From the NCBI GenBank assembly GCA_003144275.1, contig NJBF01000016.1:30001-62000 (forward strand): a stretch of 32,000 bases of DNA, read 5' to 3'. How positions within the stretch are numbered: the stretch's first letter is position 1; every line of letters begins with the position of its first letter. Origin of the DNA: Candidatus Heimdallarchaeota archaeon B3_Heim (lineage in GTDB: Archaea > Asgardarchaeota > Heimdallarchaeia > Hodarchaeales > Hodarchaeaceae). The position numbers and the translations under genes are program-made. The notes below the pieces were generated by a model, which did no database searches, had not been told where the DNA came from, and worked only from the letters and a program-made list of their open reading frames with translations. Shown in pieces: positions 16,513-18,930 of this stretch.

Positions 16513-18930
16513 ATGAATAATCCGATTGAAAACAAAAAAAACTCCAGAATAAGATCGGGTTCCGATAATTTTTTTGAGAATCAGATTATTTACTGTCCGG
16601 AAACAGACAATCTCAATAGTAGCTTATCTCAACTGAAGAAAAAAAGTCCCAGATTGATTATTTATGATATTTCTCATAATTTCTATCCACCAAAAGTACA
16701 ATTAATTCCTAACGGAAGATTCACAGGGAAGCACAATTGGAAGGCCACTCTTATCTATCATGACGAAATTTCTCTGGACGAATTTTTGAGTCAAATAACT
16801 AATATTTTCAAGATTTCCCGTTCTGTACTGAAATTGGATGGATTTATAGCTGTTAAGGTGAATGGTTCTATCAAATCGTTTATAAAAAAAATTCTGGATA
16901 CTATCTTCCATCAAGAAAATTTTATGAACGAGATTATTTTAAATTCCCCAATACAAATTCACTATTCCAAGGAAAGTGCATTCTTTGAGAGGACTGATTA
17001 TTTCTTATTATATAGCTATTCAAATCCTCAAAAAATAAATCCTGTGTATGATGAAAAGGAAAGTGGAGGGTACTGGCACTCATTTGTATCTAAAGGACAA
17101 GGATCTCCAAAAAATTTTCTTATAAATGGTAAGATGGTTCTATTAAATCCCCCTAGTGGAACTCATTGGAAATTGAAACAGGAATCCATACTTGAACTTT
17201 GTAAGAAAGGACAGATTCGATTGAATAGGAGAGGGAATCCTGAATATTGGGTACCCCCTAAAATCGGGCAAATAATAGATACAAATTGGCTCGATCTAGA
17301 TATCCTTACGATGAGAAATGGAAAAGATCGACGTTCATATTATATGCGGCTCTTCCAGGTGTTATTGACATCAAATCAACTAGTTGTCATTATAAACCCT
17401 AGAGATGTTAAATCTTTAATAGAAGCCTCTAACTTTGATTTAAACTGGACATGTCTGGTTGAGGATAAAAAAACAGTTGATATCCTGAAATCTGAACTTA
17501 TACAGGAAAATATTAATTATTCAGTAGGGTTTGCTCAGAATTCAGAAGTTACACATCTCGATTTGTACAAAATACCCTTACTCGAAGAACAGATAGAGGA
17601 ACTACCTTCGTACAATGAGAAAATCAGTAAATTAAAACCTGTTTCAATGTATTCAAATGATACTAATAAAGAGATTCAAGCTGAAAATGAATTGGGTAAT
17701 ATATTAATTCAGGGAGATTGTCTCCATGTCTTACGTTTACTTCAGACAGAATACCGTCAGGCTATAAAACTAATTTATATTGATCCTCCCTTCTATACTG
17801 GAACCAATGAATTGCTATATATCCCCGTTCAAAAAAGAGAAAGTTCAAATTTTATACAGAACAATAAGTCAGACATTTCGATAAAAACGGTGGCTTATGA
17901 AAATGTATTTACGAGTAACACGCCAATAGAAGACTTTAAACTCTGGTTCAGAAAACGTATTATTCTAATGAGGTCGTTATTACGTCCAGATGGTTTTATA
18001 TTTGTAAGATTTGATTATCATTTTGGTCATTATGCGAGGGAAGTTTTGAATGATATTTTTGGGCAGGAAAATTTTGAGATTGAATTTATTATCCGTCGTA
18101 TGAAAAAGAATTTATCAGAAAAGCAGTTAAATCAACAGACTCACCTAATTGTGCATTCTGATTCGTTATTCGTTTATCGTGGGAGCAAACAGGCAAAGCT
18201 TAGGCATGAAATGATAAAAAAGAGGAGCAGAAAGGGCCAAGATAAAGCAGAAATTGAATATTCCCATGATAATCTGTGGATTGACATTGCTGGATACCAA
18301 AAAGTAAAAAGAACTTTATATCCAACAGAAAATTCTGAAGCCTTATTAAAACGCATTATTGAAATTAGTACTTCAAAAGGTGACATTATTGCTGATTTTT
18401 TTGCTGGGTCAGGGACTACACTCGCTATGGCAGAACAACATGACAGGAAATGGTTGGGTATTGACATTGGAATGTTATCCATCAATGAAATACGGAAAAG
18501 ATTATTGAAGATAGAGGGAAGGGAACCATTTGCATTTCATGAATTAATACTGAAACCTAATAGCCGTGAATCCGACAAAAATAGGGAGTTTGGGATTAAT
18601 ATAAACGTCACCAAGCGTCCAATTGCTCAAGGGACTGAAATAGGAATAACATTAATAAATTTACTGCACTCCTCTCCGTTGAGTAAATTACAACATTATT
18701 CATATTTAGACTTGATCGATTATTGGGAAATTGACTGGTATTATAATAAATCAATGGCAAATATAGGATGGTATTCTTATAGGCAAATAATAAGAAAGGA
18801 GGTAGAAAAGACCATCGCAGTTTCCGCTAGTCATGAATATTCGCATTCTGGGGAATATAACATTTGGATAAATATCATTGATGTCTTTGGAAACTCTCAT
18901 CAGAAGACAATTAAAATTGATTTACTATAA
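16513..18930 (+). CDS. Beta-class (Type III Mod-like) DNA methyltransferase with an internal tandem duplication of the MTase domain
   Basis: The C-terminal copy has LIQGDCL, LIYIDPPF (~17782) and DFFAGSGTT (~18394). The N-terminal copy is degenerate (LIIYDISHNF, no FxGSG) and carries a TRD-like insert. Confidence 0.88.
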   Translation: MNNPIENKKNSRIRSGSDNFFENQIIYCPETDNLNSSLSQLKKKSPRLIIYDISHNFYPPKVQLIPNGRFTGKHNWKATLIYHDEISLDEFLSQITNIFKISRSVLKLDGFIAVKVNGSIKSFIKKILDTIFHQENFMNEIILNSPIQIHYSKESAFFERTDYFLLYSYSNPQKINPVYDEKESGGYWHSFVSKGQGSPKNFLINGKMVLLNPPSGTHWKLKQESILELCKKGQIRLNRRGNPEYWVPPKIGQIIDTNWLDLDILTMRNGKDRRSYYMRLFQVLLTSNQLVVIINPRDVKSLIEASNFDLNWTCLVEDKKTVDILKSELIQENINYSVGFAQNSEVTHLDLYKIPLLEEQIEELPSYNEKISKLKPVSMYSNDTNKEIQAENELGNILIQGDCLHVLRLLQTEYRQAIKLIYIDPPFYTGTNELLYIPVQKRESSNFIQNNKSDISIKTVAYENVFTSNTPIEDFKLWFRKRIILMRSLLRPDGFIFVRFDYHFGHYAREVLNDIFGQENFEIEFIIRRMKKNLSEKQLNQQTHLIVHSDSLFVYRGSKQAKLRHEMIKKRSRKGQDKAEIEYSHDNLWIDIAGYQKVKRTLYPTENSEALLKRIIEISTSKGDIIADFFAGSGTTLAMAEQHDRKWLGIDIGMLSINEIRKRLLKIEGREPFAFHELILKPNSRESDKNREFGININVTKRPIAQGTEIGITLINLLHSSPLSKLQHYSYLDLIDYWEIDWYYNKSMANIGWYSYRQIIRKEVEKTIAVSASHEYSHSGEYNIWINIIDVFGNSHQKTIKIDLL

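What the first reader, a model, noticed from the sequence alone, without database searches (positions are those of the whole stretch)
16513..18930. Single-chain pseudo-dimeric beta-class methyltransferase: dead copy with TRD plus active copy without TRD
Seen: the protein holds two colinear MTase copies. LIIYDISHNF/LIYIDPPF, LKLDGFIAVKV/LRPDGFIFVRF, ILDTIFHQENF/VLNDIFGQENF, TDYFLLYS/SDSLFVYR, DTNWLDL/DNLWIDI and LVVIINP/IIADFFAGSG all align. Copy 1 has lost DPPY and FxGSG but has a ~85-aa TRD-like insert (GYWHSF...PPSGTHW...GQIRL...GNPEYW); copy 2 has intact motifs and only ~25 aa at that position. Established: in the EcoP15I Mod2 dimer one subunit recognises DNA and the other methylates, and METTL3/METTL14 is an active/inactive pair. 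Inference: this is that division of labour hard-wired into one polypeptide.
Basis: partly seen in the sequence, partly recalled or inferred. Interest (0 to 1): 0.72.

Follow-up and report, generated by a model that had tools for sequence, protein, structure and literature searches.

The report
Fused dead-plus-active DNA methyltransferase pseudo-dimer
One archaeal gene encodes two copies of a DNA methyltransferase fold: the first has lost its chemistry but keeps the DNA-reading insert, and the second keeps the chemistry but has lost the insert, so a job normally shared by two identical subunits appears to be built into one chain.

Summary
ORF 16513-18930 (805 aa) holds two colinear beta-class (Type III Mod-like) methyltransferase copies (hhalign probability 99.6%, E 1.8e-24).

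- **N copy:** it lacks motif IV (DPPF) and motif I (FxGSG). It keeps an ~85-aa insert that is the best-conserved part of that half.
- **C copy:** it has invariant DPPF and FxGSG, with only ~27 aa at the insert position.
- **Fold and packing:** the N half alone folds as a Mod-like MTase. The two halves are predicted to pack through a pseudo-two-fold interface (ipSAE 0.85, best control 0.00).

The strongest support is unfused relatives. Two Asgard contigs carry modA(dead, with insert)-res-modB(active, no insert) operons. A tree places N halves with ModA and C halves with ModB (aLRT 100 each). The dead/active pair is therefore older than the fusion.

The fused form has no Res gene on its contig. 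It occurs in 18 of 21 other sampled species genomes of one Hodarchaeales-like GTDB genus and in few other genomes of the phylum sampled.

Activity, target motif, monomeric state and superposition on EcoP15I Mod2 are untested. Another first-stage note of this scan reports the same architecture in a different genome.

The parts
16513..18930 (+). Whole gene, 805 aa: tandem beta-class MTase (dead copy, linker, active copy, Ig-like tail)
   Evidence: ORF list and translation. Uninterrupted open frames of 791-837 aa in 19 genomes of the genus. Full-length AF2 model pLDDT 80, pTM 0.83.
16570..17547 (+). N copy (residues 20-345): catalytically eroded Mod-like MTase domain
   Evidence: hhalign to the C copy E 1.8e-24. 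AF2 pLDDT 84. Foldseek best hits are 6k0w, 4zcf and 7dsu Mod subunits, E 7e-13 to 3e-9. The profile hits 6k0w Mod by sequence at E 2.5e-11.
16654..16683 (+). Remnant of motif IV in the N copy: LIIYDISHNF (family consensus LIFLDLS) in register with KLIYIDPPF
   Evidence: Alignment A1 and hhalign register.
17017..17277 (+). Recognition-type insert of the N copy (residues 169-255): SGGYWH...PPxGTHWKLKQ...GNPEYW. It is the most conserved stretch of the N half.
   Evidence: Invariant S184-H189, P213, P214, G216, H218-K220, G241, P243, Y245, W246 in 38 sequences. It aligns with residues ~280-344 of the 6k0w Mod subunit. It is 30% identical to the same region of the active single-domain relative P0214.
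17380..17409 (+). Remnant of motif I in the N copy: LVVIINPRDV in register with DIIADFFAGSG
   Evidence: Orthologue P0054 still reads DIIGDFFCQFG at this place.
17548..17685 (+). Poorly conserved linker (residues 346-391), mostly low confidence, with one short strand at 372-380
   Evidence: pLDDT below 50 at 344-369 and 384-392. Variable columns in A1.
17686..18552 (+). C copy (residues 392-680): intact beta-class MTase domain lacking the insert
   Evidence: PF01555 E 1.7e-35. The profile hits 6k0w and EcoP15I Mod at E 2.6e-26 and 1.6e-21. It is 47% identical and colinear with the unfused ModB P0331, E 2e-83.
17782..17793 (+). Motif IV, D424-P-P-F427 (catalytic and target-amino-group pocket)
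   Evidence: Y422, I423, D424, P425 and P426 are invariant in 38 sequences.
18181..18267 (+). Short basic segment (residues 557-585) at the position where the insert sits in the N copy and in single-domain relatives
   Evidence: hhalign gap of ~60 columns. P0214 has 78 residues where the C copy has 11.
18397..18414 (+). Motif I, F629-F-A-G-S-G634 (SAM-binding loop)
   Evidence: D628, G632, S633 and T635 are invariant.
18583..18930 (+). C-terminal all-beta Ig/PKD-like domain (residues 691-805), plus the stop codon
   Evidence: All-strand secondary structure with pLDDT 80-94. Weak PKD_4 and DUF4625 hits. The same domain ends the unfused ModB and the single-domain relatives.

Best explanation
The gene encodes a single-chain pseudo-dimer of a Type III Mod-like, beta-class DNA amino-methyltransferase.

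Beta-class enzymes work as dimers in which the recognition domain of one subunit faces the catalytic pocket of the other, so a homodimer has two composite sites. Here only one composite site survives. The N copy keeps the recognition insert and has lost motifs IV and I. The C copy keeps DPPF and FxGSG and has lost the insert.

The two copies most likely pack through the ancestral two-fold interface. The N copy would hold and read the DNA. The C copy would flip and methylate the target base, most likely N6 of adenine given the DPPF motif.

The pair did not arise by a recent internal duplication. It descends from a Type III restriction-modification lineage that already had two different Mod genes: ModA (dead, with insert) and ModB (active, without insert). 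The fused form has lost Res and ModA's C-terminal extension. It now sits as an orphan methyltransferase at a fixed chromosomal locus in one Hodarchaeales-like genus.

**Shown:** the duplication, the reciprocal losses, the fold of the N half, the relatives, the tree and the distribution.

**Predicted only:** the interface.

**Inferred:** which half reads DNA, the substrate, the methylated atom and the monomeric state.
For: - **Internal homology:** hhalign E 1.8e-24.
- **Reciprocal losses conserved in 38 orthologues**.
- **N half is Mod-like:** Foldseek E 7e-13 to 6k0w and 1e-11 to EcoP15I Mod, and all top 46 hits are beta-class MTases.
- **Full-length model:** pTM 0.83.
- **Complex prediction of N half with C half:** ipSAE 0.85 against a best control of 0.00. 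The three runs share at least 90% of contacts and the partner pLDDT is 78. In the tool's calibration the mark was reached by 58 of 80 solved complexes and 2 of 110 mismatched pairs.
- **Pseudo-two-fold interface:** 33 of 41 chain-1 interface residues that can be put in register have their homologous position in the chain-2 interface (hypergeometric p 1.6e-13). Also, 29 of 38 low-error contacts have a two-fold mate.
- **Unfused relatives:** L006 carries modA (599 aa, IDLPYK, with insert), res (ResIII plus RE_endonuc) and modB (611 aa, DPPF, no insert). L010 has the same three-gene order. In L005 a dead 310-aa gene is followed 17 nt later by a separate active-type ORF.
- **Each half matches its unfused counterpart:** the C half is 47% identical to ModB (E 2e-83) and the N half is 36% identical to ModA (E 5e-47), against 18% between the halves.
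- **Tree:** the clade (C halves + ModB) and the clade (N halves + ModA) each have SH-aLRT 100.
- **Established knowledge:** beta-class MTases dimerise so that the TRD of one subunit faces the catalytic domain of the other. In EcoP15I one Mod subunit recognises and the other methylates (PMC7544214, read).
- **No Res nearby:** no ResIII match on the gene's contig.
Against: - No coordinates were available. It is therefore not shown that the predicted interface is the EcoP15I/RsrI-type interface, or that the N-copy insert faces the DPPF pocket.
- The complex score may reflect the model's memory of solved beta-class homodimers. It shows likeness, not binding.
- The insert is largely conserved in active single-domain relatives and partly in a Helicobacter Mod subunit. 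It may be a general DNA clamp rather than the sequence reader.
- In CcrM the division of labour is different, because one subunit both recognises and methylates.
- Nothing shows that the substrate is DNA rather than RNA, or that the protein stays monomeric.
- The split form in L005 rests on one short contig and could be a frameshift.
Confidence: 0.72

Rival explanations
1. The protein belongs functionally to the neighbouring base-exchange module (two TGT-fold paralogues plus DUF6884). The near-invariant N-copy insert would read a modified base or direct the module to its sites, and would not define an ordinary methylation motif.
For: The gene starts 12 nt after the TGT-like gene, on the same strand. 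The order DUF6884, TGT-like, MTase, YjbQ recurs in L001 and L002. P0002 has a TGT fold (TM 0.71), and its nearest feature clusters are viral TGT-like and DpdA clusters. P0003 hits DUF6884 and, weakly, DpdC. In a distant lineage the tandem gene lies next to a QueT queuosine-precursor transporter.
Against: All syntenic examples come from one genus, so the synteny may simply be inherited. An MFS gene separates the TGT-like gene from the MTase in L001. Tandem genes in L004, L008 and L009 have no TGT or DUF6884 neighbour. The unfused relatives are plain Type III R-M operons.
Confidence: 0.15
2. The N copy is only a scaffold or a non-specific DNA clamp. Specificity resides in the C copy and the Ig-like tail, or the enzyme is essentially non-specific like M.EcoGII.
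For: The insert motifs are shared by many differently branching relatives, including active single-domain enzymes. The C copy has a conserved basic segment at the insert position. The Ig-like tail is retained in every form that carries the active module.
Against: The insert is the most conserved part of the N half and is kept only in the dead module in every split and fused form. That pattern is hard to explain unless the insert supplies something the active module lacks. In EcoP15I the equivalent region of the non-catalytic subunit makes the base contacts.
Confidence: 0.1
3. The gene is a decaying remnant of a Type III system, or its target is RNA or another non-DNA substrate.
For: No Res gene is present. 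The N copy evolves fast: its clade has a stem of 1.21 substitutions per site. Some beta-class enzymes act on RNA or single-stranded DNA.
Against: The frame is intact in 19 genomes. Fifty-eight columns are invariant in the C copy and 32 in the N copy across sequences down to 32% identity. The closest relatives are DNA Mod subunits sitting in R-M operons.
Confidence: 0.05

Closest known systems
EcoP15I Mod2 and other Type III Mod homodimers (PDB 4zcf, 6k0w, 7dsu)
   Same: They are the best sequence and fold matches for both halves. They share the beta motif order and a Mod-type insert. Functional asymmetry is known in this family: one subunit recognises and the other methylates.
   Different: Those are homodimers of identical, fully equipped subunits bound to Res. 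Here the two roles are fixed in different copies by reciprocal loss, the copies are joined in one chain, and there is no Res gene on the contig.
METTL3-METTL14 and ciliate MTA1-MTA9 (MT-A70 family heterodimers)
   Same: Each pairs an active beta-class subunit with a paralogue whose motif IV is eroded and which is needed for substrate binding.
   Different: They belong to a different family. MT-A70 structures match only at E 4e-5 to 4e-4, against 7e-13 for Mod. They are two chains rather than one. The dead partner there lacks a Mod-type insert. This is convergence, not shared descent of the pair.
PRMT7, a tandem protein arginine methyltransferase
   Same: It is a single chain with one active and one inactive MTase module, forming a pseudo-dimer that mimics the family's homodimer (PMC10908127).
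   Different: It is an unrelated substrate class and MTase subfamily, and it is eukaryotic. Its inactive module is C-terminal and is not the carrier of a nucleic-acid recognition insert.
Two-domain Type IIS DNA methyltransferases such as M.FokI (from my own knowledge, not checked here)
   Same: Two DNA MTase domains lie in one polypeptide.
   Different: Both domains are active, and each methylates one strand of an asymmetric site. There is no dead copy and no reciprocal loss of the recognition insert.
Two-Mod Type III operons found here (L006: P0332/Res/P0331; L010: P0202/Res/P0333)
   Same: They have the same dead-with-insert and active-without-insert modules and the same Ig-like tail. They are 36% and 47% identical to the two halves and fall in the same clades.
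   Different: They are two genes separated by a Res gene, and each Mod carries its own ~250-aa C-terminal extension. They are presumably a restriction system rather than an orphan.

Membership tests
Beta-class amino-methyltransferase (Pfam PF01555 N6_N4_Mtase) | Profile match above the curated cut-off | tested here: met
   The whole protein scores 141.3 bits against a cut-off of 26.7. The C half alone gives E 1.7e-35. The N half alone scores 26.7 bits, exactly at the cut-off.
Beta-class amino-methyltransferase (Pfam PF01555 N6_N4_Mtase) | Motif order IV (D/N/S-PP-Y/F) before motif I (FxGxG) | tested here: met
   In the C copy, DPPF at 424-427 precedes FFAGSG at 629-634. The N copy has the same order of remnants.
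Beta-class amino-methyltransferase (Pfam PF01555 N6_N4_Mtase) | Rossmann-like MTase fold in both copies | tested here: met
   For the N-half model, the top 46 PDB hits are all beta-class MTases. The full-length model matches CcrM, RsrI, MboIIA and others through the C copy.
Beta-class amino-methyltransferase (Pfam PF01555 N6_N4_Mtase) | SAM-dependent methyl transfer to an exocyclic amino group | not testable with these tools
   Only the conserved catalytic motifs of the C copy are seen.
Type III restriction-modification system (Mod subunit) | Closest sequence and structural relatives are Mod subunits | tested here: met
   6k0w, 4zcf and 7dsu are the best hits for both halves. PADLOC MTase_III gives E 1.3e-53.
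Type III restriction-modification system (Mod subunit) | Partner Res gene (helicase plus endonuclease) adjacent | tested here: not met
   No ResIII match on contig C30, and no such ORF in the window around the gene. Res is present in the unfused relatives.
Type III restriction-modification system (Mod subunit) | Mod acts as a homodimer of identical subunits | tested here: inconclusive
   An intramolecular pseudo-dimer is predicted instead. The oligomeric state was not measured, and a homodimer of the full chain exceeded the tool's size limit.
MT-A70 family (METTL3/METTL14, MTA1/MTA9) | Membership of the MT-A70 sequence and fold family | tested here: not met
   Pfam assigns PF01555, not MT-A70. 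MT-A70 structures appear only from rank 47, at E 4e-5 or weaker.
MT-A70 family (METTL3/METTL14, MTA1/MTA9) | Active subunit paired with a paralogue whose motif IV is eroded | tested here: met
   DPPF in the C copy against YDIS (consensus LDLS) in the N copy. This is a functional resemblance only.
Dpd-like 7-deazaguanine DNA modification cluster | DpdA-type transglycosylase with partner genes acting on DNA, functionally coupled to this gene | tested here: inconclusive
   TGT fold by Atlas structure, TM 0.71. The Pfam TGT hit is below the cut-off, and the profile finds no PDB sequence match. The DpdC hit of P0003 is weak, E 1e-4. Coupling to the MTase rests on synteny within one genus only.

The most novel reading that the evidence does not exclude
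Asgard archaea may harbour a so far undescribed branch of Type III restriction-modification in which Mod is an obligate heterodimer. One partner is a pseudo-enzyme that only reads DNA (ModA), and the other is an insert-less catalytic partner (ModB). In one Hodarchaeales-like genus this pair would have been fused, stripped of Res and kept as a core orphan methyltransferase, possibly working with an adjacent TGT/DUF6884 base-exchange module. That would be a prokaryotic DNA-level parallel to METTL3/METTL14 that arose independently, and a natural proof of the trans composite-site model of beta-class enzymes.
Probability: 0.45. Interest if true: 0.78.

Novelty: new variant of a known kind. Interest (0 to 1): 0.64.

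Why it matters
**What the reciprocal loss implies.** Structural work on EcoP15I, CcrM and METTL3/14 led to the proposal that beta-class amino-methyltransferases must dimerise because each subunit's recognition domain serves the other subunit's active site. This protein and its two-gene relatives look like nature's own deletion experiment. One complete composite site has been removed: the catalytic motifs of one copy and the recognition insert of the other. The remaining site has been kept under strong conservation. Reciprocal loss of this kind is what the trans model predicts, and it would be hard to explain otherwise.

**Practical use.** A monomeric, single-site beta-class enzyme would be a convenient subject for structural and kinetic work and for engineering.

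**Biological questions.** The family shows an enzyme/pseudo-enzyme methyltransferase pair arising in archaea independently of the eukaryotic MT-A70 pairs. It also shows a restriction system being turned into a conserved orphan methyltransferase. That raises the question of what the mark does in these close relatives of eukaryotes.

Tried and rejected
- **Phylum-wide conservation:** submitters' names on homologues (Loki-, Thor-, Heimdall-, Odin-, Hermodarchaeota) first suggested this. Whole-genome searches rejected it. With the insert as query, 18 of 21 other species of the window's own GTDB genus had a match, and only 3 further genomes did among the 400 searched. An earlier search with the N-half profile agreed, but it scored only 10 candidates per genome.
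- **Model coordinates:** they are not exposed, so no superposition of copy 1 on copy 2 or on 4ZCF was possible.
- **Context of short dead-only proteins:** P0197 and P0204 lie on contigs under 2 kb with no DNA held, so nothing was learned.
- **TGT/DUF6884 neighbours of the distant tandem gene in L008:** the 349-aa neighbour is another PF01555 MTase and the 171-aa one is QueT, not a TGT or DUF6884 protein.
- **TGT-like family against PDB sequences:** no significant match. Only the Atlas structure search supports the TGT fold.
- **AlphaFold DB cluster search with the full model:** no entry covers both copies convincingly. The best TM by query is 0.42, through the C half and tail.
- **Paper searches for a tandem or heterodimeric Mod**: nothing found. 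The library is partial and REBASE could not be queried, so this is not proof of novelty.
- **One look-up of earlier findings failed** on a word limit.
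Full report
**The object.** The ORF at 16513..18930 (+) encodes 805 aa. Pfam finds PF01555 (N6_N4_Mtase) strongly in residues 418-654. When the halves are scanned separately, it also finds PF01555 in residues 81-181 at E 6.5e-6, exactly at the gathering score. BLASTP of the N half against the C half gives one significant segment, 101-143 against 485-527, at 40% identity and E 9e-7.

**Is the internal repeat real?** I collected 38 full-length homologues (32-65% identical to the window protein; a 93% one exists). 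I cut them into N halves (A2) and C halves (A3) and compared the profiles. The result was hhalign probability 99.6%, E 1.8e-24, over 262 aligned columns at 18% identity.

The alignment of the family shows the asymmetry is conserved:
- The C copy has invariant Y422-I-D-P-P426 (motif IV) and D628, G632, S633, T635 (motif I).
- The N copy has LIFLDLS (window: LIIYDISHNF) and a degenerate stretch (window: VVIINPRDV) at the same places.
- The best-conserved part of the N half is the ~85-aa insert 169-255 (SGGYWH, PPxGTHWKLKQ, GNPEYW). The C copy has ~27 residues there.

**Does the N half fold as an MTase?** AF2 on the N-half alignment gives pLDDT 84 and pTM 0.75. Foldseek against the PDB returns only beta-class MTases in the first 46 places. 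The list is led by the Type III Mod subunits 6k0w (E 6.7e-13), EcoP15I 4zcf (1e-11) and Mbo45V 7dsu (3e-9). MT-A70 proteins appear only from rank 47. By sequence, the N-half profile hits 6k0w Mod at E 2.5e-11, in an alignment that runs into the insert. The C-half profile hits the same Mod proteins at 2.6e-26 and 1.6e-21.

**Do the halves form a pseudo-dimer?**
- The full-length model has pLDDT 80 and pTM 0.83, which is high for a multi-domain chain.
- A complex prediction of the N half with the C half scored ipSAE 0.85 against a best control of 0.00. The three runs share at least 90% of contacts and the partner pLDDT is 78. In the tool's calibration this mark was reached by 58 of 80 solved complexes and 2 of 110 mismatched pairs.
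- Using the hhalign register, 33 of 41 N-half interface residues that can be put in register have their homologous position in the C-half interface (hypergeometric p 1.6e-13). Also, 29 of 38 low-error contacts have a two-fold mate. That is the signature of an interface inherited from a symmetric homodimer.

Two cautions apply. Solved beta-class homodimers exist, so the score may be remembered likeness. Coordinates are not exposed, so I could not check that the arrangement equals EcoP15I Mod2 or that the insert faces the DPPF pocket.

**Relatives that settle the history.** A profile search of 1.84 billion representative proteins with the N half found 43 proteins at E of 1e-30 or better. Reading them shows four architectures:
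- fused forms like the window's;
- active single-domain enzymes that have DPPF, the same insert and FxGSG, some with the same Ig-like tail (P0209, P0211, P0213, P0214, P0223 and others);
- dead, insert-bearing proteins of ~590 aa with a C-terminal extension (P0194, P0200, P0202, P0203);
- short dead-only proteins (P0197, P0201, P0204).

Genomic context is decisive. In L006 (genome G244) three genes lie head to tail:
- a dead Mod with insert (P0332, 599 aa, IDLPYK in place of motif IV);
- a Res protein (872 aa, ResIII helicase plus RE_endonuc);
- an active Mod without insert (P0331, 611 aa, DPPF and FFCGSG).

L010, from another assembly, has the same order: P0202, Res (867 aa), P0333. In L005 the dead P0201 ends with a stop. 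Seventeen nucleotides later, in another frame, a separate ORF begins that reads like the start of the active copy. This last case is a single short contig, so a frameshift cannot be excluded.

The C half is 47% identical and colinear with ModB P0331 (E 2e-83). The N half is 36% identical to ModA P0332 (E 5e-47). The two halves are only 18% identical to each other. A maximum-likelihood tree of 50 domains puts all C halves with ModB and all N halves with ModA and the dead-only proteins. Each clade has SH-aLRT 100, and the stem to the dead clade is long (1.21). Fused and split forms are interleaved in matching fashion in both clades. This was a quick search, and recognition-insert columns were not removed. 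The loss of catalysis in one paralogue and of the insert in the other therefore happened before the fusion, in a heterodimeric Mod of a Type III system.

**Where the fused form lives.** Homologues carry submitters' names from many Asgard phyla, but whole-genome searches tell another story. With the insert as query, 18 of 21 other species genomes of the window's own GTDB genus match. The three misses are 70, 71 and 93% complete. Only 3 further genomes match among the 400 of the phylum that were searched (one search agrees).

The neighbourhood is the same in L001 and L002 as in the window: DUF6884, TGT-like, MTase, YjbQ, a small ORF, TFB on the other strand, HflX-type GTPase, subtilase. There is no ResIII match on the gene's contig. 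The fused gene is therefore a vertically kept orphan, not part of a mobile R-M cassette.

[quoted passage not shown] In EcoP15I one Mod subunit reads the site and the other methylates (PMC7544214). A homodimer then has two composite sites. In this family one whole composite site has been erased and the other kept. I infer the following:
- The N-copy insert reads DNA.
- The C copy methylates adenine N6, given DPPF and the closest relatives being m6A Mod enzymes.
- The chain can work as a monomer.
- The near-invariance of the insert within the genus implies one conserved target.

None of these inferences is tested.

**Comparison with known systems.**
- **Type III Mod** is the closest family, and the ancestry is clear. 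The protein fails the system's defining feature of a partner Res, and its Mod is not a homodimer of equal subunits.
- **METTL3/METTL14 and MTA1/MTA9** share the active-plus-eroded logic but belong to another family.
- **PRMT7** is the best-known single-chain MTase pseudo-dimer (PMC10908127).
- **Two-domain Type IIS MTases** (from my own knowledge) have two active copies.
- I found no paper describing a dead-plus-active Mod pair or fusion. The beta-class review does not mention one. REBASE could not be searched.

**Context noted by others.** Earlier first-stage notes on this window describe the TGT paralogues and the DUF6884 gene. I confirmed that the minus-strand ORF 13898-14836 is a paralogue of the TGT-like gene (hhalign probability 96.9%). 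I also confirmed that P0002 has a TGT fold by the Atlas structure search. A functional link to the MTase remains open. A first-stage note on another genome describes the same tandem dead-plus-active architecture with a PKD-like tail.

**Verdict.** It is strengthened by the two-gene relatives. I class it as a new variant of a known kind.

Noticed in passing
L006:271-6519 (-) and L010:7001-13276 (+): Type III R-M operons with two different Mod genes flanking Res. The upstream Mod has an eroded motif IV but keeps the recognition insert. The downstream Mod is active but lacks the insert. I know of no described Type III system with a heterodimeric Mod.
   Followed up: partly
window 13898-16500: Two TGT-fold paralogues (312 aa on the minus strand, 353 aa on the plus strand) bracket a DUF6884/YaaA-like gene with a weak DpdC hit. 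The 353-aa family has 67 members, all from Asgard metagenomes, and no Pfam domain. It may be a DNA or RNA base-exchange module.
   Followed up: partly
L008:1456-8250: In a distant lineage the tandem MTase is flanked by a QueT queuosine-precursor transporter, a second PF01555 MTase, a dCTP-deaminase-like gene and a 733-aa protein with PF01555 pieces. This is a second, independent adjacency to 7-deazaguanine-related genes.
   Followed up: no
window 11036-13834: A 932-aa Eco57I/MmeI-type gamma-class MTase with a TaqI-like C-terminal specificity domain. No nuclease domain was detected by Pfam.
   Followed up: no
own genome, e.g. G000:C44:1402-5898: The genome has 32 PF01555 matches on many contigs. 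One is a 1631-aa open frame with several partial matches in unusual order, so other composite MTases may be present.
   Followed up: no
P0216 (1598 aa): A protein with three tandem, apparently active beta-class MTase copies (ATDPPFNTG and DPFCGSGTT three times) behind a long N-terminal region. It contrasts with the dead-plus-active design.
   Followed up: no
L009:4437-10873 (-): Next to another tandem MTase lie a 749-aa reverse-transcriptase plus BRCT protein and two large proteins without Pfam hits. This may be a defence island.
   Followed up: no
window 19027-24651: The run YjbQ, a small ORF, TFB (minus strand), a 145-aa ORF, HflX-type GTPase and subtilase is syntenic with L001 and L002. It marks the locus as core chromosome.
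   Followed up: partly
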